Shown: positions 39,318 to 46,850 of the stretch, in pieces
Layout: the number at the start of each line of letters is the position of its first letter
Numbering within the stretch: the first letter of the stretch is position 1
From: Candidatus Korobacteraceae bacterium
Lineage (GTDB): Bacteria; Acidobacteriota; Terriglobia; Terriglobales; Acidobacteriaceae
Assembly: GCA_049519595.1 (NCBI GenBank)
Contig: JBEKQP010000001.1
Coordinates: 3,399-67,398 of the forward strand
DNA length: 64,000 bases
Direction of reading: 5' to 3'
The notes under the pieces: model-generated
What the model saw: the letters and a program-made list of their open reading frames with translations, nothing else
Databases searched by the model: none
What the model was told of the DNA's origin: nothing
Program-made: the position numbers and the translations under genes

Positions 39318-40193
39318 GTGTCCCTCTCTCGTAACATAGGAACTACGCTGGAAATGATCAAGTGGGAGCACTCCGTGCTGACGCTTCCGTTTGGCCTTAC
39401 CGGCGCGGTGCTGGCGGCGCGCGGCCTTCCCAGCGTGCGACAGGCGGTCTGGCTGGTGGTGGCGCTGGTCTCCGCCCGGTCAGCGGCCATGGCCTTCAAC
39501 CGCCTGGCAGACGCGGCCATCGATGCCGAAAACCCGCGAACAGCATCGCGCGCCATTCCCGCCGGACTTCTCTCGCGGCAATTCGTCTTCTGGTTTGTCG
39601 TGGTGTTCTCGCTGATCCTGATTTTCGCAGCGAGGATGCTGAGCCAGCTTGCATTCTATCTCTCGCCCGTGGCGCTGGTCATCCTCTTCGGCTACTCATA
39701 CACCAAACGCTTCACGCGCTGGGCGCATGTGTTCCTGGGTCTGGCCATGGGGATCGCCCCAGCCGCCGCGTGGGTGGCGATCCGGGGCACGCTGGACCCG
39801 AAAATCTTCATCGTGACCGGCGCGGTCATGTTCTGGGGGGGCGGCTTCGATATTTTGTATAGCTGCCAGGACTACGAGCATGATTGCCGCGCCGGATTGT
39901 ACTCCGTCCCCCGGGCCTTTGGCATCGCGAGGGCGCTGGTGCTGGCGCGCATCTTCCACGTCGTCGCCTTTGGACTGTTTCTGTGGATGGTGTTCGCGTT
40001 TGCGCTAGGTCCGGTGGCACTGGTGGGAGTGCTGCTGGTGGGAGCGCTGCTGATTTATGAGCACTCGCTGGTGCGGGCGAACGACCTGAGCAGACTCAAC
40101 GCGGCGTTTTTCACCACCAACGGCTTTATTTCCATGCTGCTGCTGGGCTTTATTGCCGCCGATCTGCTGATCCGGCACGGCTCCAGCCTTTAG
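39318..40193 (+). CDS. UbiA-family aromatic prenyltransferase (likely menaquinone/futalosine-pathway prenyltransferase)
   Basis: NRLADAAIDAENPRT (NxxxDxxxD motif), a polytopic membrane profile, and adjacency to an Mqn-type radical SAM gene. Confidence 0.85.
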   Translation: MSLSRNIGTTLEMIKWEHSVLTLPFGLTGAVLAARGLPSVRQAVWLVVALVSARSAAMAFNRLADAAIDAENPRTASRAIPAGLLSRQFVFWFVVVFSLILIFAARMLSQLAFYLSPVALVILFGYSYTKRFTRWAHVFLGLAMGIAPAAAWVAIRGTLDPKIFIVTGAVMFWGGGFDILYSCQDYEHDCRAGLYSVPRAFGIARALVLARIFHVVAFGLFLWMVFAFALGPVALVGVLLVGALLIYEHSLVRANDLSRLNAAFFTTNGFISMLLLGFIAADLLIRHGSSL

Positions 40194-40224
40194 AAATGGT
40201 TCTTTGTGCGTTATCATCGAAAAG

Positions 40225-41367
40225 ATGTTTGGCTCGGAGAATAAACACCGCCCATTTCAAACAGACGATCCCAGGCTGCTGCCAATCGCCGACAAGGTGG
40301 CGCGGCAGGAACGTCTGACGTCTGAAGATGGCCTCGCCCTCTACCAGACGAGCGATATCCTCGCTGTCGGCTGGCTGGCTAACCAGGTGCGCGAACGCAT
40401 GCATGGCGATGTCGCGTACTTCAATGTCAACCGTCACATCAACCCAACCAACGTCTGCGTAGCGGCTTGCCGGCTGTGTGCCTTTGGCCGCAGAAAAGAC
40501 GTCCCCGGGGCCTACACAATGGCTTTGGAGGAGGCTTGGCGCGCGGCGGCTTCGGGCTACACGGAAGCGGTGACGGAGTTTCACATCGTCGGTGGCCTGC
40601 ACCCTGACTTGCCGCTAGAATATTTCTTAGATCTGTTTCGCGGTCTCAGGGAGCGGTTTCCGAAGGTGCACCTCAAGGCGTTCACCATGGTGGAGGTTGC
40701 GTTCTTCGCCAAGCGTGCCAAGCTCTCGATACGCGAGACGCTGCTGAAAATGAAAGAGGCAGGCGTGCAATCGATGCCCGGTGGAGGAGCGGAAATCTTC
40801 GCCGAACGGGTGCGCTCAATCATCTGCGACCACAAGATCGATGGAAACGAGTGGCTGGAAACGGCGCGTATCGCTCACGAGGTCGGGCTGAAGTCGAACG
40901 CCACCATGCTCTACGGGCACATCGAGAACGACGAGGACAGGGTGGATCATCTGGTGAAGCTGCGAGCCCTGCAGGACGAGACCCATGGGTTCCAGTGTTT
41001 TATTCCGCTCTCGTTCCATCCCGCCAATACCATGCTCGAACACCTGCCTACCACCACCGGCATGCAGGACATCAAGCAAATAGCGGTCTCGCGGTTGGTG
41101 CTGGACAACTTCCCGCACATCAAGTCCTACTGGCAAATGATGACTCCTAAGGTGGCACAGATTTCGCTGTGCTTTGGAGCTGACGATATCGATGGCACGG
41201 TGGTGGAAGAAAAGATCTACCACGACGCGGGAGCGACGACGCCCCAGGGTCTTCGCCGCCATGACTTGATCAGGTTGATCAAGGAAGCTGGGCGGGAGCC
41301 GTTGGAGCGAGACACGCTGTATCGGCGGGTGACTCGGGACGAAACTTCGTTCACGGTTGCCGTCTAG
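40225..41367 (+). CDS. futalosine-pathway radical SAM enzyme (MqnE/MqnC family; MqnE-like by eye)
   Basis: NVNRHINPTNVCVAACRLCAF (CxxxCxxC), HIVGGLHPD, and GGGAEIF. The ORF opens at TTG 40204. Confidence 0.8.
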   Translation: MFGSENKHRPFQTDDPRLLPIADKVARQERLTSEDGLALYQTSDILAVGWLANQVRERMHGDVAYFNVNRHINPTNVCVAACRLCAFGRRKDVPGAYTMALEEAWRAAASGYTEAVTEFHIVGGLHPDLPLEYFLDLFRGLRERFPKVHLKAFTMVEVAFFAKRAKLSIRETLLKMKEAGVQSMPGGGAEIFAERVRSIICDHKIDGNEWLETARIAHEVGLKSNATMLYGHIENDEDRVDHLVKLRALQDETHGFQCFIPLSFHPANTMLEHLPTTTGMQDIKQIAVSRLVLDNFPHIKSYWQMMTPKVAQISLCFGADDIDGTVVEEKIYHDAGATTPQGLRRHDLIRLIKEAGREPLERDTLYRRVTRDETSFTVAV

Positions 41368-41766
41368 GCGGGCTGCGGAAGGTAGTCTGTAGGGCCCAAC
41401 TCGAAGCTTCGCCATATCCGCTTCGCCTGCAGCTCCGCAAATATAGCCGCCAGCGAGAATGCATGCTCCCCACTCCGCAGGGGCTCTTTTGTGCCCTGGA
41501 AACGTTCCTAGGGGCGCGCTGATGGGGCGGTGGAGTAACGGGCCCTAGTTCGATCATACTTTCACCCCGAATGCTTGCAATTCTGATTGGCATTGCCGTC
41601 CGCAGGTCAGATTCCTGAGTGGCAGGCCCCGTGCAAGTCCGCGCCTGTTAGAGGGTTTCATTCATTGGTGAAGCAACTGTCTTTTGTCTGCACGCTTCAG
41701 TAACAGCAGGTGTACAATTCCCGGACACAGGGACTTTGGGAGCCACTCCTGTAACGGAGCCCATGA

Positions 41767-42813
41767 ATGAACGTCCATTTCACGTACAAACTTTCAAAAA
41801 CTGCCGATCTCGAAAATCTGATCACACAACGAATTGAAAAACTACAAAAGCGCCTTCAGGTGTTTCGGCCCGACATGATTTCGCTGTATGGTTCGGTCGA
41901 TGAGCATCCGAAGATGGGCTTCAACGTAGCGCTGAATCTGCGCTTGCCGTCCGGGCAACTGGCTGCGCGCGAAGTCGGCGACACGGCACCGAGCGCGATT
42001 AAGAGTTGCTTTGAGAGCCTGAAGGAGCAACTCGCGAAGCACATGGATCACCTGCGGGCCGCGTACAAGTGGCCACGCAGAAGGCGCCCGGCGGGACGTA
42101 CCCGCGCGGAAACGCAGGTGCCCTTCGAAGAGACACTTGCGTCCGTGCAGGCCGACGTCGTTTCCGCCCAGGATGTTAATGGCTGGCTGAATGCGAATCT
42201 CGACAAATTGCAGCGATTCGTCGAGCGGGAACTTCGCTACCGCAGCAACAGCGGGCAGCTGCGTGCGCAACAGATAACACCAGAGGAGGTAATCAGCGAG
42301 GCCATCGCGAACGCGCTGGACGGCCGCACGGAAAAACCCGAGAAATTTACGCTGGAGCCCTGGCTGTACTTTCTTTCACGGGCCGCCATCGATCGTCTGG
42401 CGGAGCAAGCTCGCGGCGCAGAGGGTGAAGTCGGATTGGACTCTAGCGTGCGGGCAGAGGAGGCCACCGGAAGCGACGAGGCCATGCTCCAGTTCCATCA
42501 TCCCGACGAAATGCTTACCAACGAGAATGTCATTCCCGATGGTGCAACCGCGACGCCGGAGGAGATCGCCGCTAGCGACGAAGTGATGGGAATGATCGAG
42601 ACGGTTTTGCGCAACGCGCATCACGAAGACCGGGAGGCTTTCATCCTGTTCACGATGGAAGGGTTCACCGTGCAGGAAATAGCCGTGATTACCGAGCGCA
42701 AGCCGGAAGAGGTCCGAACGTCGATTGCAAAAGCACGCGAACAACTGCGGAAAGCACTGCCGGTTGCCGAGCAGTTGAGGAACAAGCTGATCGAGCATTC
42801 CAAATCCGCCTAA
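41767..42813 (+). CDS. fusion protein: N-terminal RaiA/HPF (S30AE) ribosome-hibernation-factor domain plus C-terminal ECF-like sigma-70 regions 2 and 4
   Basis: The N-terminal 100 or so aa are colinear with HPF/YfiA (MNVHFTYK...ITQRIEKLQKRL...AIKSCFESLKEQLAKHMDHL). A basic linker KWPRRRRPAGRTR follows. Then come the region-2-like EEVISEAIANAL...PWLYFLSRAAIDRL and the region-4-like DREAFILFTMEGFTVQEIAVITERKPEEVRTSIAKAREQLRKAL. Confidence 0.8.
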   Translation: MNVHFTYKLSKTADLENLITQRIEKLQKRLQVFRPDMISLYGSVDEHPKMGFNVALNLRLPSGQLAAREVGDTAPSAIKSCFESLKEQLAKHMDHLRAAYKWPRRRRPAGRTRAETQVPFEETLASVQADVVSAQDVNGWLNANLDKLQRFVERELRYRSNSGQLRAQQITPEEVISEAIANALDGRTEKPEKFTLEPWLYFLSRAAIDRLAEQARGAEGEVGLDSSVRAEEATGSDEAMLQFHHPDEMLTNENVIPDGATATPEEIAASDEVMGMIETVLRNAHHEDREAFILFTMEGFTVQEIAVITERKPEEVRTSIAKAREQLRKALPVAEQLRNKLIEHSKSA

Positions 42814-42853
42814 ACAACCAGAACGAGTCCAAGAGTATTGAGGAGAGGTGTCG

Positions 42854-44014
42854 ATGATTACGCGAAGAGAAATCCGCGCTCTGGCCGAATTTCAATCGGC
42901 CCGAGGATGTGCAGTCACGTTTTACTATCAGCCCGACACACCGGCGAACCAGTCTCATCGGGAGGAAGCAATCCTGGTGAAGGATTTGGGGCGTGCGGCG
43001 CTTCGCGAAGCCGAGAAAGAGGGTCGCAACGATTATGCGCGCGCCGACCTGAGCCGAATTCTCGAGCTGGCGGAGCGTCTCCACGGGAATGCCGGGAAGG
43101 CGAAGGCGGTCTTTGCCGACTCGTCACAGAACGTCTGGCGTGAGTTTGACATTCCGGCATGGCTGGACAAGACGCGGGTGTTGATCGATCGTCGGTTTCA
43201 TCTCAGACCGCTGGCGCCGCTGCTGGAGGTGAATCCGCGGGTATGCGTTTGCGTCGTGGATCGCAGCAAAGCGCGACTTTTCGACTACCAGAATGAAATC
43301 TGCAAGGAGGTTATCGGATTTTTCACCGAGTCGCCGCGAGTGGGCGAGAGCACGGGAGGGGGAGGCTACGATGCCGGACACATCTCCCGGCGCGTTTCCG
43401 AATTTGCCAAGCAGCACTATAAAAAGGTGGCGGATACGATTCTGAAATTCTTTGAACGCGGCAGTTGCGAGAGTCTGGCGGTGGGAATCCGCGACGAGAA
43501 TTGGCTCGAATTCGAATCTGTGCTGCACCCTTACCTCAAAAAGAATCTGGTCGGCCGCTTCCATGCCGATCCCGATACAGCGACTCCTCAGCAACTGAAA
43601 GGAAAGCTCGAACGGCTGCTGGATGAGTACGAACTGAATCGGCACCGAGGGCTCGTCCGCGAGGTGCTGGGGGAAGCGCAGCGGAAGGCTCGCGGGGCAG
43701 TCGGCTTGCGGCGCGTGCTGCGCTCGCTGGAAACCGGAGAGATTCAGACACTGCTGCTGGGAGAGCACTTTCAGGCCCCTGGCGTCGAGTGCCGCCATTG
43801 TGGGCATGTAGACCTGAAAGTCTATCCCAACTGCGCAATCTGCTCGCATCCTGTCGCTGCCGTAGAGGATATCAGCGACGCGATCCTGGGAGCGGCACTG
43901 CGTGGCGGCATAGAGGTGGTCTACGTGAGAGACGATTCCGAATTGGAAGCGGCAGGAAATATCGCCGCGCTGCTACGCTTCCGGGCGGACCAACGGAGAG
44001 CGGTTGCCTCATAG
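42854..44014 (+). CDS. bacterial eRF1/Pelota-fold (archaeo-eukaryotic release-factor-like) protein with a Zn-ribbon insert
   Basis: Central domain VCVCVVDRSKARLF...ESTGGGGYDAGHISRRV. C-domain GAVGLRRVLRSLETGEIQTLLL...IEVVYVRDDSE...GNIAALLRF. CRHC-x10-CAIC is inserted in the C-domain. ATG 42854 follows GGAG (the ORF opens at GTG 42848). Confidence 0.8.
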   Translation: MITRREIRALAEFQSARGCAVTFYYQPDTPANQSHREEAILVKDLGRAALREAEKEGRNDYARADLSRILELAERLHGNAGKAKAVFADSSQNVWREFDIPAWLDKTRVLIDRRFHLRPLAPLLEVNPRVCVCVVDRSKARLFDYQNEICKEVIGFFTESPRVGESTGGGGYDAGHISRRVSEFAKQHYKKVADTILKFFERGSCESLAVGIRDENWLEFESVLHPYLKKNLVGRFHADPDTATPQQLKGKLERLLDEYELNRHRGLVREVLGEAQRKARGAVGLRRVLRSLETGEIQTLLLGEHFQAPGVECRHCGHVDLKVYPNCAICSHPVAAVEDISDAILGAALRGGIEVVYVRDDSELEAAGNIAALLRFRADQRRAVAS

Positions 44015-44045
44015 ACTTGTAGGGTGCGAAACATGGGCGTGGCCT

Positions 44046-44083
44046 TTTGGCTGCGCCTTTTTTGTTGTTTTTTACGGTTGCGC
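44046..44083 (+). terminator. strong rho-independent terminator after the eRF1-like gene
   Basis: ggcgtggcc-tttt-ggctgcgcc forms a 9-bp stem with two G-U pairs, followed by ttttttgttgtttttt. Confidence 0.8.
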
Positions 44084-44140: not shown

Positions 44141-44818
44141 ATGTCATTGCCGCAAGCATCACAGATACACTCCTTTTTCTCTTCCTTTGGCACTTTTTCG
44201 GTTGTGGCATTGAGTTCGGTGTTCTTTCTCGTCGATCCATTCGCCGCCATCCCGGCATTCCTGGCGATGACCGCGAACCATGAAGCTACGGTCAGACGCC
44301 GAATGGCGAAGCGCGCTGCCTGGACGTGTTTCGGAGTGCTGTCGGTGTTTGCATTGTCGGGCGGGATGATCTTCCGCATGTTTGGCATCACGCTGGCAGC
44401 TTTTGAAATCGCAGGTGGGTTGATTCTGTTGTTGATAGGGCTTGAGATGATTCAGGCGCGTCGCTCCGCCACCCAGGAACACACCAGTGAAACCCTGGAA
44501 GGAGCCATGAAGGAAGACATAGGAATTACACCGCTCGGCGTGCCGATGTTGGCCGGGCCGGGGGCAATTTCAACCGTGATGGTGCTGACCGGAGCTTCTC
44601 CGCGTTGGCTTCACATCTCGGTGGTGTGGTTGGCCATCGTGGTGACGTCCTTCGCCTCTTACGTGATCCTGGCGGGTGCGGACCGCATTCGCCGACGGCT
44701 TGGCGAAACGGGAATCCGCATCATGATGCGCATGATGGGCTTGCTGCTGACCGCCATCGCAGTCCAGTTCGTGATCAACGGGTTGGTTTTGATTGGCGTG
44801 ATTCAGGGTGGTGGGTAA
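44141..44818 (+). CDS. MarC-family (UPF0056) membrane protein
   Basis: FFLVDPFAAIPAFLAMT...FGITLAAFEIAGGLILLLIGLEMI. Confidence 0.85.
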   Translation: MSLPQASQIHSFFSSFGTFSVVALSSVFFLVDPFAAIPAFLAMTANHEATVRRRMAKRAAWTCFGVLSVFALSGGMIFRMFGITLAAFEIAGGLILLLIGLEMIQARRSATQEHTSETLEGAMKEDIGITPLGVPMLAGPGAISTVMVLTGASPRWLHISVVWLAIVVTSFASYVILAGADRIRRRLGETGIRIMMRMMGLLLTAIAVQFVINGLVLIGVIQGGG

Positions 44819-44940: not shown

Positions 44941-45396
44941 ATGTTCGCGCCATTTCAGCGTAAATTGCTGCAAGTGAAACGCCTTCAGCAGGACAAACCG
45001 AGCCTCCTAGAAGGACAGCTAAGCAAGCGTGGGACAGCTATCCTTGTCGTGATATTCCTCGCGATTGCCATCGCAGCCGACCAATTACGACCGGGGTGGG
45101 GGCGTTCCGCAGGAACAACCGCTGGCGTCTTTGCCGCCGCTTCAGTCATGTGGCCACAGTTCCGAAGAGAATGGTGGTTTTGGTTCACACTGTTGCCGCT
45201 GTTCGCTCTGCAAGTGATCGTCTTTGTGCGCTTTCAGGGATTCCGATTGTTTGTCGAGCAGGCAGCCCCCGCTGTGTGGTTCCTGCTCGGCCTAGCAGAC
45301 TTCGTGTGCGTTGCAACGGCAGTGGTTCTTATAGCTCAATTTGCAAGACGAAGGAAGGGCACTGGATGCGAGAAGAACGAACACAGTTCATCGTAA
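44941..45396 (+). CDS. hypothetical membrane protein
   Basis: Four hydrophobic segments and no recognised family. Confidence 0.45.
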   Translation: MFAPFQRKLLQVKRLQQDKPSLLEGQLSKRGTAILVVIFLAIAIAADQLRPGWGRSAGTTAGVFAAASVMWPQFRREWWFWFTLLPLFALQVIVFVRFQGFRLFVEQAAPAVWFLLGLADFVCVATAVVLIAQFARRRKGTGCEKNEHSSS

Positions 45397-45671: not shown

Positions 45672-46850
45672 TCAGAAGGCGTCAATCCCGGTGATGGCCG
45701 TGCCCAGGATAAGGGTGTGGACATCGTGGGTTCCTTCATAGGTCTTGACCGACTCCAGATTCGCCATGTGGCGGAAGACCGGGTATTCGTCGGCGATGCC
45801 GTTGGCGCCCAGAATATCGCGCGCCAAACGTGCGCACTCCAGCGCCATCCAGACGTTATTCCGCTTGGCCATGGAGATGTGCTGGTGTCCAGCTTTTCCC
45901 TCATCCTTAAGACGGCCGACTTGCAGGACGAGGAGTTGTCCCTTGGTGATCTCGCTCAACATCCAAACCAGCTTCTCCTGCACCAGTTGATGCGATGCGA
46001 TCGGCTTGTCATGGAACTGCTTGCGGAATAACGCATACTGAAGCGCCGTGTCGTAGCACGCCATAGCGGCGCCGAGCGCTCCCCACGCAATCCCGTACCG
46101 GGCCTGGTTCAAACACATGAGCGCCGACTTAAGCCCATCGGATTTCGGCAGGATGTTCTGACAGGGAATGCGGACGTCCTGCAACGAGAGGGAAGAGGTG
46201 ACCGAGGCGCGCAGCGACCATTTCCCGTGCACGTCCTGTGCACTGAAGCCGGGCCGATCGGTCTCGACCAGAAAACCGCGGACTTTGCCGTCTTGTTCCT
46301 CGTTCTTTGCCCAGATCACGGCAACGTCGGCAATGGAGCCAGAGGTGATCCACATTTTCTCGCCGCTCAGCACGTACTCGTGGCCCTCGCGGCGCGCACG
46401 CGTGCGCATGGCCCCGGGATTGGAGCCCGCATCGGGTTCGGTGAGGCCGAAGCAGCCGAGTTTATCTCCCGCAGCCATCGGTGGAAGCCACTGTTCTTTC
46501 TGTTCTTCGCTGCCGAAGGCGTGAATGGGATACATGCAGAGCGCCGATTGTACGCTGACGAAGGAGCGCACGCCGCTATCTCCGCGTTCCATCTCCTGCA
46601 TGATGAGGCCGTACTCGACGTTGTTCATCTCGGCGCAGCCATAACCCCGCAAGGTGGCGCCGAAGAATCCGAGTTCGGCCATGGGTTGCACCAGTTCCCG
46701 CGGGAAGCGGCCGTCCCGGTTGCACTCTTCGATGATGGGAATCAGATTGTCTTCGATGAACTGGCGCGAAGTGTCACGCACCATGATTTCTTCGTCGGAA
46801 AGTAGCGAATCGAATTGGATGAAATCGAAGCCCTTAAATTTGATTGCCAT
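45672..46850 (-). CDS. acyl-CoA dehydrogenase, glutaryl-CoA dehydrogenase-like
   Basis: GCFGLTEPDAGSNPGAM, EKMWITSG, and the C-terminal YEGTHDVHTLILG. Confidence 0.88.
   Translation of the reverse strand: MAIKFKGFDFIQFDSLLSDEEIMVRDTSRQFIEDNLIPIIEECNRDGRFPRELVQPMAELGFFGATLRGYGCAEMNNVEYGLIMQEMERGDSGVRSFVSVQSALCMYPIHAFGSEEQKEQWLPPMAAGDKLGCFGLTEPDAGSNPGAMRTRARREGHEYVLSGEKMWITSGSIADVAVIWAKNEEQDGKVRGFLVETDRPGFSAQDVHGKWSLRASVTSSLSLQDVRIPCQNILPKSDGLKSALMCLNQARYGIAWGALGAAMACYDTALQYALFRKQFHDKPIASHQLVQEKLVWMLSEITKGQLLVLQVGRLKDEGKAGHQHISMAKRNNVWMALECARLARDILGANGIADEYPVFRHMANLESVKTYEGTHDVHTLILGTAITGIDAF

What the first reader, a model, noticed from the sequence alone, without database searches (positions are those of the whole stretch)
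42854..44014. eRF1-like protein lacking GGQ (GGGG loop instead) and carrying a CxxC-x10-CxxC zinc ribbon in its C-domain
By eye, VCVCVVDRSKARLF...PRVGESTGGGGYDAGHISRRVSEFAKQHYKKVA aligns with the eRF1 M-domain around [17 protein letters not shown]. The catalytic Gln position is therefore occupied by Gly/Tyr. The C-domain (GAVGLRRVLRSLETGEIQTLLL...GNIAALLRF) is interrupted by CRHCGHVDLKVYPNCAICSH. Absence of GGQ argues against peptidyl-tRNA hydrolysis and for a Pelota/Dom34-like role in stall recognition or subunit splitting, or for a purely regulatory role.
Basis: partly seen in the sequence, partly recalled or inferred. Interest (0 to 1): 0.65.

Follow-up and report, generated by a model that had tools for sequence, protein, structure and literature searches.

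The report
Balon-type ribosome hibernation factor gene
This gene encodes a bacterial copy of the archaeal/eukaryotic release factor eRF1 that has lost the catalytic glutamine and most likely parks ribosomes in a dormant state (a Balon-type hibernation factor), so it is a new member of an already described family rather than a new kind of protein.

Summary
ORF 42854..44014 (+) encodes a 386-aa, three-domain eRF1-like protein with no GGQ and no NIKS. It has a GGGG loop at aa 168-171 and a CxxC-x10-CxxC zinc ribbon at aa 313-330.

It is not a new kind of protein. It scores above threshold for Pfam baeRF_family10. Its nearest solved relatives, by sequence profile and by predicted fold, are the mycobacterial Balon ribosome hibernation factors (TM 0.74-0.77), followed by archaeal aRF1.

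The GGGG run occurs only in relatives at 86% identity or more. The wider clade has DGWxGYDAGH, and Rv2629 Balon also carries GWxGY. Three independent alignment registers each put Gly or Tyr where a catalytic Gln would sit.

The zinc ribbon is almost universal in the family. It sits at the ZnR insertion site already described for aeRF-1, where Balon has a Cys-free stretch instead.

The gene lies 40 nt downstream of an HPF/RaiA–ECF-sigma chimera. This pairing is kept down to 36% identity, and stand-alone HPF takes that position at 31-32%. A terminator-like hairpin follows the gene.

The HPF linkage, the loss of the Gln in most baeRF-1 families and SigE-HPF chimeras next to Balon are all published.

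Best reading: a non-catalytic A-site hibernation factor working with HPF. A Pelota-like splitting role is less supported.

The parts
41709..41720 (+). Conserved -10-like promoter element GGTGTACAATTC (TACAAT at 41713-41718), about 49 nt upstream of the HPF-sigma start codon
   Evidence: G.GTA.AAT is invariant in an alignment of 8 upstream regions whose downstream baeRF proteins are 36-92% identical to the window's. It occurs once in the window. The consensus scan tool did not report it. Promoter function is inferred.
41767..42813 (+). Partner gene: chimera of an HPF/RaiA ribosome-binding domain (aa 1-99), a disordered basic linker, an ECF sigma region-2-like domain (aa 134-220) and a sigma region 4 (aa 264-343)
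   Evidence: Pfam hits Ribosomal_S30AE, PhyR_sigma-like and Sigma70_r4_2 are all above cutoff. TIGR02937 scores 38.9 bits, just below its cutoff. The profile hits HPF and ECF sigma chains in the PDB. The AF2 model shows this domain layout. Foldseek matches HPF/YfiA/RaiA at TMt 0.8-0.88, and also SigE, SigW and RpoE. The chimera lies directly upstream of the baeRF gene in 12 related loci.
42840..42848 (+). Shine-Dalgarno sequence GAGGAGAGG, 5 nt before the ATG at 42854
   Evidence: Read directly from the sequence.
42854..44014 (+). baeRF family 10 / Balon-type eRF1-like protein, 386 aa. Approximate domains: N aa 1-125, M aa 130-245, C aa 250-378
   Evidence: PF18854 scores 61.2 bits against a cutoff of 27.1. 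The family profile matches Balon MSMEG_1130 at 3.9e-35, aRF1 at 1.1e-31 and Rv2629 at 2.7e-24. The AF2 model has pLDDT 81. Foldseek's best hit is 8v9l_z Balon at TM 0.74/0.77.
42929..42958 (+). N-domain loop QPDTPANQSH (aa 26-35), the positional counterpart of the Balon loop that contains the only 'HP' dipeptide in its aligned N-domain (THREHPANDQDP)
   Evidence: Q, two P, S and H are invariant or nearly so in the 29-sequence alignment. The N-domain profile aligns this loop with P. urativorans Balon ...THREHPANDQDP.... A decoding-centre contact is inferred from PMC10901736.
43334..43381 (+). M-domain tip loop PRVGESTGGGGYDAGH (aa 161-176), homologous to the GGQ loop; GGGG is at 43355-43366
   Evidence: Alignments to eRF1, to aRF1 and Rv2629 and to the GGxSQ sister group. 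Model residues 166-174 (GTG-start numbering; aa 164-172 from the ATG) have pLDDT below 50, so the loop is flexible. Loop variants across the family are listed.
43790..43843 (+). Zinc ribbon CRHC-x10-CAIC inserted in the C-domain
   Evidence: Cys conservation. It aligns with the C...CxxC segment of H. salinarum aRF1 and with Cys-free segments of MSMEG_1130 and Rv2629. The profile also picks up rubredoxin, Nop10, Spt4 and bL32 zinc ribbons weakly. pLDDT here is about 85-89. Zinc binding itself is inferred.
44035..44068 (+). Terminator-like hairpin (10 pairs, 7 G-C) followed by TTTTTGTTGT, 21 nt after the stop codon
   Evidence: Found by the terminator scan. The total count in the region does not exceed the shuffled expectation, so its position is the only argument. 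It would separate the two-gene unit from marC.
44141..44818 (+). MarC-family membrane protein gene, a neighbour that is probably a separate transcription unit
   Evidence: PF01914 at 185.6 bits. It is retained only in close relatives. MarC is named among common Balon neighbours in PMC10901736.

Best explanation
The gene encodes a non-catalytic bacterial aeRF1 homologue of the baeRF-1 clade. By Pfam it belongs to baeRF_family10, and its closest solved relatives are the Balon ribosome hibernation factors.

Proposed mechanism, inferred by homology:
- Under starvation or stress, the two-gene unit (HPF-sigma chimera plus this gene) is transcribed.
- The protein enters the ribosomal A site independently of mRNA.
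- Its conserved N-domain loop (QPxTPxNQSH) contacts the decoding centre in place of a NIKS-type codon reader.
- Its flexible, Gln-less M-domain loop (GGGGYDAGH here, DGWxGYDAGH in the clade) sits at the peptidyl-transferase centre without hydrolysing peptidyl-tRNA.
- Its C-domain faces the GTPase-associated centre. The intact zinc ribbon there occupies the site where Balon has a Cys-free stretch.
- The HPF domain of the co-expressed chimera occupies the 30S tRNA/mRNA sites at the same time, so the ribosome is kept inactive and protected.

Shown here: family membership, fold, absence of Gln and NIKS, conservation of the zinc ribbon, and the conserved linkage to HPF. Inferred: ribosome binding, EF-Tu involvement, zinc binding, and the physiological trigger.
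For: Family assignment:
- PF18854 scores 61 bits against a cutoff of 27.
- There are weak full-length hits to all three NCBIfam Balon 'ribosome hibernation factor' models and to aRF1_eRF1.
- The 102-sequence family profile matches Balon MSMEG_1130 (3.9e-35), aRF1 4af1 (1.1e-31), Rv2629 (2.7e-24), P. urativorans Balon (7e-18), eRF1 (about 1e-18) and Pelota (6e-14).

Fold and N-domain:
- The AF2 model's best Foldseek hits are ribosome-bound Msmeg1130 Balon (E 3e-22, TM 0.74/0.77). The aRF1 and eRF1 matches listed alongside it have TM about 0.3-0.5.
- An N-domain-only profile hits the two Balon sequences and nothing else related at E<1.

Catalytic loop:
- No Gln in three registers and no GGQ or NIKS anywhere.
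- The GWxGY motif of the clade also occurs in Rv2629 (AGWNGY). PMC10901736 reports that Rv2629 binds the A site.

Genomic context:
- An HPF-domain gene lies immediately upstream in 14 of the 19 related loci that include upstream sequence, across 31-96% identity. In the window the gap is 40 nt.
- A conserved -10-like element precedes the pair and a terminator-like hairpin follows it.
- One distant relative sits in a ClpB-DnaK-DnaJ cluster.

Literature:
- Balon genes are most often next to raiA, and also near sigma70 factors and MarC (PMC10901736).
- baeRF-1 linkage to HPF, and a proposed non-catalytic A-site inhibitor role (PMC6514570).
- SigE-HPF chimeras are frequently adjacent to Balon (bioRxiv 10.1101/2025.11.04.686544).
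Against: - There are no experimental data for this clade.
- Scores against the three curated Balon equivalogs are far below cutoff (51, 42 and 42 bits against 330, 320 and 480).
- In a rough NJ tree the mycobacterial Balons fall outside the family-10 group. The function is therefore transferred across a long distance.
- aRF1 scores nearly as well as Balon in the full-length profile search.
- The literal 'HP' dipeptide found in the aligned Balon loop is absent here. The Pro is kept, but the preceding residue is T, A or P.
- The bL27 trap and the lasso geometry could not be assessed.
- Balon's EF-Tu contact uses a Cys-free beta-loop. An intact zinc ribbon at what appears to be that site might change or abolish the contact.
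- Burroughs and Aravind singled out family 10 as possibly catalytic.
- Five of the 19 related loci have no HPF neighbour.
Confidence: 0.7

Rival explanations
1. It is a Pelota/Dom34-like rescue factor. It would recognise stalled or empty-A-site ribosomes and promote subunit splitting or recycling rather than storage.
For: It lacks the catalytic Gln, as Dom34 does. Pelota chains are matched by the profile (6e-14) and by fold. Burroughs and Aravind list a Dom34-like non-catalytic rescue role as one option for baeRF-1.
Against: Pelota matches mainly the M and C domains (profile positions 128-307 for the best chain). The N-domain resembles Balon, with no Pelota or aRF1 hit at E<1. Bacteria have no known ABCE1-type splitting partner (general knowledge), and none was seen among the neighbouring genes examined. 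The conserved neighbour is a hibernation factor domain, not a rescue or RNA-repair gene. The closest solved relatives are reported to stabilise ribosomes rather than split them (PMC10901736).
Confidence: 0.12
2. It is an alternative peptidyl-tRNA hydrolase or release factor used under special conditions, as proposed for baeRF family 10 because of a conserved glutamine.
For: It belongs to Pfam baeRF_family10. Sister members carry an invariant Gln in QGGW(S/A)Q. These also hit the acVLRF1 and eRF1_2 models. Burroughs and Aravind suggested family 10 could be catalytic.
Against: In this protein and its whole clade the Gln position is Gly, and the loop is 3 residues longer. No GGQ, GGxSQ or other conserved loop Gln is present. 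There is no NIKS-like codon-reading motif, and the tip of the N-domain hairpin tolerates a 14-aa insertion in P0008.
Confidence: 0.04
3. It acts mainly as a regulatory partner of the sigma-like domain encoded upstream, for example as an anti-sigma-like binder. It sits where ECF sigma operons usually carry their anti-sigma gene, and zinc may take part in sensing.
For: The gene lies directly downstream of an ECF-sigma-like domain gene, and this arrangement is conserved to 36% identity. A Cys4 zinc site is present. Many anti-sigma factors bind zinc (general knowledge).
Against: The zinc ribbon and the rest of the protein are equally conserved in relatives that have a stand-alone HPF neighbour or none at all. 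The ribbon is an ancestral aeRF-1 feature. No anti-sigma (ZAS HxxxCxxC) motif or domain was found. The full three-domain ribosome-binding architecture is retained.
Confidence: 0.08

Closest known systems
Balon ribosome hibernation factors (P. urativorans Balon, M. smegmatis Msmeg1130, M. tuberculosis Rv2629; Helena-Bueno et al. 2024, PMC10901736)
   Same: Both are three-domain aeRF1-like proteins. Balon gives the best sequence-profile match and the best whole-chain structural match. Neither has NIKS or GGQ. The N-domain is Balon-like. The GWxGY loop motif also occurs in Rv2629. Both lie next to an HPF/RaiA gene, with sigma and MarC genes nearby.
   Different: Identity is only about 17-20%. The protein falls below all three NCBIfam equivalog cutoffs. 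The mycobacterial Balons fall outside its family in a rough tree. It has an intact Cys4 zinc ribbon where Balon sequences have a Cys-free segment. The HP dipeptide is not conserved. The HPF partner is fused to an ECF sigma domain.
baeRF-1 clade, Pfam baeRF_family10 PF18854 (Burroughs and Aravind 2019, PMC6514570)
   Same: It scores above the gathering cutoff. It has the full N-M-C architecture, and the HPF neighbourhood matches what was described for several baeRF-1 families.
   Different: The paper highlights family 10 for a well-conserved Gln. Here only a subgroup (QGGW[SA]Q; 106-129 bits on PF18854) has it. This clade scores lower (61 bits) and has Gly at that position plus a 3-residue insertion. 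It also keeps a true ZnR rather than the 2-beta-strand insert found in many baeRF-1 families.
Archaeal aRF1 / eukaryotic eRF1
   Same: The fold and domain order are the same. The M-domain helix after the loop and the C-terminal ...G.IAALLRF motif align. The zinc ribbon is at the same C-domain site as the Cys-bearing insert of H. salinarum aRF1.
   Different: There is no GGQ, no NIKS, and TIGR03676 scores 39 bits against a cutoff of 234.7. The host is a bacterium.
Pelota/Dom34
   Same: Both are non-catalytic members of the same superfamily. The M and C domains align.
   Different: The N-domain is not matched. No splitting partner was seen, and the genomic context points to hibernation.
SigE-HPF chimeric hibernation factors (bioRxiv 10.1101/2025.11.04.686544)
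   Same: The upstream gene is an HPF domain that lacks the long-HPF dimerisation domain and is fused to an ECF (SigE-like) sigma region. It sits next to a Balon-type gene, as that preprint describes.
   Different: The preprint's worked example is the E. coli plasmid pEc78. No plasmid homologue of the window's baeRF protein was found, and the HPF-sigma protein itself was not searched against plasmids. The Terriglobales version is chromosomal, very abundant in soil metagenomes and uncharacterised.

Membership tests
Pfam baeRF_family10 (PF18854) | Score above the curated gathering cutoff of the family HMM (M domain) | tested here: met
   61.2 bits against a cutoff of 27.1, aa 118-249 (GTG-start numbering), covering profile positions 2-133 of 143.
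Pfam baeRF_family10 as characterised by Burroughs and Aravind 2019 | A well-conserved glutamine in the catalytic loop | tested here: not met
   hhalign places the invariant Gln of the QGGW[SA]Q subgroup opposite Gly171 (numbered from the ATG) of this protein. No loop Gln is present in the 29 close homologues.
Balon (Helena-Bueno 2024) | aeRF1-like three-domain fold | tested here: met
   AF2 model with pLDDT 81. Foldseek matches Msmeg1130 at TM 0.74/0.77, Rv2629 at 0.67/0.70 and P. urativorans Balon at 0.65-0.71.
Balon (Helena-Bueno 2024) | Absence of both the NIKS and the GGQ motifs | tested here: met
   Neither motif occurs in the sequence. Loop registers are given. The region that aligns with aRF1 NIKS is variable and tolerates an insertion.
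Balon (Helena-Bueno 2024) | HP motif in the N-domain that binds the decoding centre | tested here: inconclusive
   The paper's text gives no residue numbers for the motif. The only HP dipeptide in the aligned Balon N-domain lies in the loop THREHPANDQDP, which aligns with the window loop QPDTPANQSHREE. The Pro is invariant, the residue before it is T, A or P, and an invariant S-H follows 4-5 residues later.
Balon (Helena-Bueno 2024) | Lasso loop around A2602 and the bL27 trap in the M domain | not testable with these tools
   This needs a ribosome complex structure. All that can be said is that the loop is flexible (pLDDT below 50) and that the same GWxGY motif occurs in Rv2629.
Balon (Helena-Bueno 2024) | C-domain beta-loop insertion that contacts EF-Tu(GDP) | tested here: inconclusive
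   An insertion exists in the C-domain, but here it is an intact Cys4 zinc ribbon aligned with Cys-free segments of MSMEG_1130 and Rv2629. That this segment is the paper's EF-Tu-binding beta-loop is my inference, drawn from Burroughs and Aravind's '2-beta-strand insert at the ZnR site'. EF-Tu binding was not testable.
Balon (Helena-Bueno 2024) | Gene located in a stress-response operon, most often next to raiA/hpf | tested here: met
   An HPF-domain gene lies 40 nt upstream in the window. The same holds in 14 of 19 related loci. MarC lies downstream.
Balon (Helena-Bueno 2024) | Binds the A site of vacant and translating ribosomes and inhibits translation | not testable with these tools
   Requires biochemistry or cryo-EM.
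NCBIfam Balon equivalogs (AOC03_06830, Rv2629, MSMEG_1130 families) | Score above the equivalog cutoff | tested here: not met
   50.9, 41.8 and 41.7 bits against cutoffs of 330, 320 and 480. It is a separate family within the same superfamily.
Classical aRF1/eRF1 | GGQ catalytic motif, NIKS-type codon recognition and the TIGR03676 cutoff | tested here: not met
   No GGQ or NIKS. TIGR03676 scores 39.1 bits against a cutoff of 234.7.
Classical aeRF-1 architecture | Zinc ribbon inserted in the C-terminal (Pelota-type) domain | tested here: met
   CxxC-x10-CxxC at aa 313-330 aligns with the C...CxxC insert of H. salinarum aRF1 4af1. The feature is described in PMC6514570.
Pelota/Dom34 | Pelota-type N-domain (with loop A) together with the M and C domains | tested here: not met
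   The best-scoring stretches of Pelota chains cover only profile positions 128-308. The N-domain profile finds no Pelota chain at E<1.

The most novel reading that the evidence does not exclude
In Terriglobales the module would be more than two independent hibernation factors. The HPF domain would tether a functional ECF sigma factor to ribosomes locked by the zinc-ribbon Balon-type protein. Sigma availability, and so a stress or wake-up transcription programme, would then be gated by ribosome occupancy. The Cys4 ribbon could serve as a zinc or redox-sensitive release switch at the EF-Tu-facing side. The conserved 40-nt-spaced gene pair, the intact sigma2/sigma4 domains and the invariant Cys4 are compatible with this, but nothing here tests it.
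Probability: 0.08. Interest if true: 0.75.

Novelty: new member of a known kind. Interest (0 to 1): 0.3.

Why it matters
The finding extends the Balon/baeRF-1 hibernation system to Terriglobales (Acidobacteriota), a dominant and slow-growing group of soil bacteria. There the gene is very common: more than 3,700 database clusters match at E<=1e-3.

It also refines a published generalisation. Proteins matching Pfam baeRF_family10 fall into several loop classes. One class keeps a GGxSQ-type Gln. The others, including this HPF-linked clade, have lost it.

The clade keeps the ancestral zinc ribbon at what appears to be the site Balon uses for EF-Tu. That makes it a useful natural variant for asking how these factors are recruited.

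None of this overturns current understanding. It is a well-supported annotation with modest follow-up value.

Tried and rejected
I used exact-protein contig look-ups instead.
- The first tree script timed out. A simpler NJ tree was used. It is rough and was used only for orientation.
- The consensus promoter scan found nothing on the + strand upstream of the operon. Aligning the upstream regions revealed a conserved -10-like element instead.
- Rfam and tRNA scans of the whole window found nothing. No riboswitch or leader RNA was found for the 399-nt upstream gap.
- No plasmid homologue of the baeRF protein was found.
- Phrase searches for baeRF1/Zn-ribbon and for HPF-ECF fusions returned nothing. 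The relevant papers were reached through other terms.
- A GGQ 'elsewhere' was considered. GGQ strings at about aa 193-251 in a few distant homologues lie outside the tip loop aligned. The query has ERGS at the corresponding place, and the strings are not conserved. I rejected them as catalytic motifs.
- The weak hits to Host_attach, baeRF family 3 and family 12 are below cutoff and reflect superfamily similarity only.
Full report
**1. The observation**

The region holds one long ORF on the + strand, 42848(GTG)/42854(ATG)..44014. All homologues begin MITR. A Shine-Dalgarno sequence, GAGGAGAGG at 42840-42848, lies 5 nt before the ATG and overlaps the GTG.

Numbered from that Met:
- GGGG is aa 168-171 (nt 43355-43366).
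- The cysteine motif CRHC-GHVDLKVYPN-CAIC is aa 313-330 (nt 43790-43843), exactly CxxC-x10-CxxC.
- The protein contains no GGQ and no NIKS.

**2. Conservation**

The family is large. It has more than 3,700 database clusters at E<=1e-3, and the best 120 are 54-91% identical, full-length proteins. A search of 50%-identity cluster representatives finds 2,069 at E<=1e-3.

In 29 close homologues the four Cys are invariant. In 102 sequences at 22-69% identity, two Cys are invariant and two are at least 90% conserved. A CxxC-x(5-25)-CxxC motif lies at aa 281-352 (mostly 299-327) in 90 of 101 full-length representatives.

The GGGG run is a different matter. It is present only in relatives at 86% identity or more. 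The clade consensus is PRRGxSDGWxGYDAGH, in which the window has replaced D-G-W-x-G by T-G-G-G-G. So the zinc ribbon is a family character, and 'GGGG' is a recent local variant of a conserved, Gln-less loop.

**3. What the protein is**

- *Family models.* Pfam gives baeRF_family10 (PF18854) at 61.2 bits against a cutoff of 27.1. NCBIfam gives weak, sub-cutoff, full-length matches to the three curated 'ribosome hibernation factor' (Balon) equivalogs and to aRF1_eRF1.
- *Full-length profile against the PDB.* A profile of the 102 diverse homologues ranks Balon MSMEG_1130 first (3.9e-35). Next come H. salinarum aRF1 (1.1e-31), Rv2629 Balon (2.7e-24), A. pernix aRF1 (4.8e-24), eRF1 (about 1e-18), P. 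urativorans Balon (7e-18) and Pelota (6e-14, with the best stretch covering M and C domains only).
- *Predicted fold.* An AlphaFold2 model (pLDDT 81, with the tip loop below 50) is most similar to ribosome-bound Msmeg1130 Balon (Foldseek E 3e-22, TM 0.74/0.77). The other Balon structures give TM 0.65-0.71. The aRF1 and eRF1 chains listed alongside them match with probability 1.00 but TM about 0.3-0.5, because the domain arrangement differs.
- *N-domain alone.* A profile of the N-domain hits the two Balon sequences (4e-7 and 7.6e-5). The four other hits, at E 0.4-0.9, are unrelated proteins.

The closest characterised relatives are the Balon hibernation factors.

**4. Register of the catalytic loop**

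Three independent alignments were examined:
- phmmer to eRF1 places the GGQ Gln opposite Tyr172.
- The family profile to aRF1 places it opposite the family Trp/Phe, which is Gly169 in the window. The family loop is 3 residues longer.
- hhalign between the close family (A1) and a sister group with an invariant QGGW(S/A)Q motif (A6) scores E 1.8e-68 over the full length. It places that Gln opposite the nearly invariant Gly, which is Gly171 in the window.

No register gives a Gln, and no conserved GGQ exists elsewhere. A few distant homologues have a GGQ string at about aa 193-251. These lie outside the tip loop aligned, the query has ERGS at the corresponding place, and the strings are not conserved.

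**5. A refinement of the literature**

Burroughs and Aravind (PMC6514570) defined the baeRF-1 clade. They noted that most of its families lack the Gln, and they singled out family 10 as having a well-conserved Gln and therefore as possibly catalytic.

In my sample, proteins matching PF18854 fall into several loop classes:
- A Gln class, QGGW[SA]Q, resembling the GGxSQ motif of VLRF-1. It scores 106-129 bits on PF18854 and also hits acVLRF1 and eRF1_2.
- A G(W/F/Y)xG(Y/F) class, which includes the window.
- Others.

A rough NJ tree puts the Gln class mostly in one cluster and the window's clade among the GY class. The mycobacterial Balons lie outside family 10. The GWxGY motif also occurs in Rv2629 (AGWNGY), which binds the ribosomal A site (PMC10901736).

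**6. The zinc ribbon**

In the profile alignments the ribbon aligns with the Cys-bearing insert of H. salinarum aRF1 (ECPNDH...CSDCG). It aligns with Cys-free segments of MSMEG_1130 and Rv2629.

Burroughs and Aravind describe exactly this. Classical aeRF-1 carries a ZnR inserted in the C-terminal (Pelota-type) domain. Many baeRF-1 families carry a two-beta-strand insert at the same site, which may be a degenerate ZnR.

Helena-Bueno et al. report that Balon contacts EF-Tu(GDP) through a distinct C-domain surface that includes a unique beta-loop. Equating that loop with this insertion site is my inference, not a tested result. The ribbon is therefore an ancestral feature retained here, not an innovation. 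Its interest is that a Balon-type protein keeps it intact.

**7. Genomic context**

The gene immediately upstream, 41767..42813 (+), ends 40 nt before the ATG.

*What it encodes.* It is a chimera:
- an HPF/RaiA (Ribosomal_S30AE) domain, aa 1-99;
- a disordered basic linker;
- an ECF sigma region-2-like domain, aa 134-220;
- a sigma region 4, aa 264-343.

Foldseek matches HPF/YfiA/RaiA structures at TMt 0.8-0.88. These include the RaiA that co-binds with Balon in 8rd8. It also matches ECF sigmas. The chimera is very abundant in Terriglobales metagenome-assembled genomes.

*How well the pairing is conserved.* The window comes from an acidobacterial lineage close to Ca. Korobacteraceae MAGs. Nineteen related loci include sequence upstream of the baeRF gene:
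- The chimera sits directly upstream in 12 loci, with baeRF identity 36-96%.
- A stand-alone HPF sits there in 2 loci, at 31-32%.
- Five have no HPF. One of these lies between clpB and dnaK-dnaJ.

*Signals around the pair.* A -10-like element, G.GTA.AAT at window 41709-41720, is invariant across 8 upstream regions. A terminator-like hairpin with a T run (44035-44068) follows the stop codon, ahead of marC.

*What is already published.* All of this matches existing descriptions:
- Balon genes are most often adjacent to raiA, with sigma70 factors and MarC among recurrent neighbours (PMC10901736).
- HPF linkage is reported across baeRF-1 families (PMC6514570).
- SigE-HPF chimeras are 'frequently found adjacent to' Balon (bioRxiv 10.1101/2025.11.04.686544).

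**8. Mechanism**

Best-supported reading (confidence about 0.7): a non-catalytic A-site ligand that, together with the HPF domain of the co-expressed chimera, holds ribosomes in a protected, inactive state.

*Shown here:*
- homology and fold;
- loss of the Gln and of NIKS;
- a conserved N-domain loop (QPxTPxNQSH) at the position of the Balon loop that carries its only HP dipeptide (THREHPANDQDP);
- a conserved zinc ribbon;
- conserved linkage to HPF.

*Inferred by homology:* A-site binding, mRNA independence, contact with the peptidyl-transferase centre without hydrolysis, EF-Tu(GDP) involvement, zinc binding, and induction by stress.

*Rivals:*
- Pelota-like rescue or splitting (about 0.12). 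Disfavoured by the N-domain, the context and the lack of a splitting partner.
- Alternative peptidyl hydrolase (about 0.04). Disfavoured by the missing Gln.
- Anti-sigma-like regulator of the upstream sigma domain (about 0.08). Disfavoured because the protein and its ribbon are equally conserved where no sigma is nearby.

**9. Membership**

- It meets the Pfam baeRF_family10 threshold.
- It fails the 'conserved Gln' trait attributed to that family.
- It fails all three NCBIfam Balon equivalog cutoffs and the aRF1 cutoff.
- It meets the sequence- and context-level Balon traits: fold, no NIKS or GGQ, and an HPF neighbour.
- It is inconclusive for the HP motif and the EF-Tu loop.
- The lasso loop, the bL27 trap and ribosome binding could not be tested.

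It is best filed as a distinct Terriglobales family of the baeRF-1/Balon superfamily that probably works like Balon.

**10. Verdict**

Novelty: a new member of a known kind. Interest is modest (0.3). It is a solid annotation and a useful natural variant, with an intact zinc ribbon, a Gln-less branch of family 10 and an HPF-sigma partner, in an ecologically dominant soil phylum. Each of its headline features has already been described.

Noticed in passing
window 41767-42813 (+): The upstream gene encodes an HPF/RaiA domain fused through disordered linkers to a complete ECF-sigma-like sigma2 + sigma4. It is very abundant in Terriglobales MAGs, and sources name it inconsistently (HPF/RaiA, sigma-70 family, or sigma factor-like HTH protein). 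A 2025 preprint mentions SigE-HPF chimeras next to Balon. Whether the sigma part binds RNA polymerase is unknown.
   Followed up: yes
window 41709-41720 (+), within the 399-nt gap 41368-41766: A -10-like element, G.GTA.AAT (GGTGTACAATTC here), is invariant in 8 upstream regions from loci whose baeRF proteins are 36-92% identical. A TTGC-containing stretch lies about 15-17 nt upstream. It looks like a housekeeping-type promoter rather than an ECF-type one. The consensus scan tool missed it.
   Followed up: partly
window 44035-44068 (+): A terminator-like hairpin (10 bp, 7 G-C) with a T run lies 21 nt after the baeRF stop. It suggests that marC (44141-44818) is transcribed separately.
   Followed up: partly
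proteins P0182, P0193, P0196, P0203, P0205, P0213, P0217, P0221, P0236, P0244, P0250, P0252, P0270 and others; locus L008: A sister group within Pfam baeRF_family10 has an invariant QGGW(S/A)Q loop, which is GGxSQ-like as in VLRF-1. It also matches the acVLRF1 and eRF1_2 models and mostly keeps the zinc ribbon. The one locus examined (L008) has no HPF neighbour; it lies between MerR and DAG-kinase-like genes. These proteins could be true peptidyl hydrolases.
   Followed up: partly
L021 1-6118: A 30%-identical GWSGY-type homologue lies between clpB and dnaK-dnaJ. This heat-shock context resembles the one reported for some Balon genes.
   Followed up: no
L016 1-324 and L017 3-209: In relatives at 31-32% identity, the ORF directly upstream matches only the HPF part of the chimera. 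In L016 it ends about 57 nt before the baeRF start, and in L017 about 65 nt before. This suggests the sigma fusion arose within the acidobacterial clade, after the HPF-baeRF pairing was already in place.
   Followed up: partly
P0008 (79% identical homologue), alignment A1 columns 65-78: A 14-residue insertion (PPQQWQKQPSPATS) sits at the tip of the N-domain helical hairpin, the place that aligns with the NIKS loop of aRF1. That tip is therefore not under tight constraint.
   Followed up: no
window 39318-41367 (+): A UbiA-family prenyltransferase (39318-40193) and a radical-SAM CofH/MqnC-like gene (40204-41367) precede the operon. The radical-SAM gene stays upstream of the HPF-sigma/baeRF pair in loci down to 36% baeRF identity. 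This is probably lineage synteny (menaquinone or a related cofactor pathway) rather than a functional link.
   Followed up: no
L007 4912-7162: In one related MAG, both the HPF-sigma and the baeRF reading frames are broken into several tblastn segments. The locus was reported at 96% for its best-matching segment; the individual segments are 82-96% identical. These look like frameshifts from assembly or sequencing errors rather than real pseudogenes.
   Followed up: no
window 44941-45396 (+): A 151-aa ORF with hydrophobic stretches has no Pfam match. It lies between marC and a minus-strand acyl-CoA dehydrogenase gene (45672-46850). It was not seen in the tblastn comparison with related loci.
   Followed up: no
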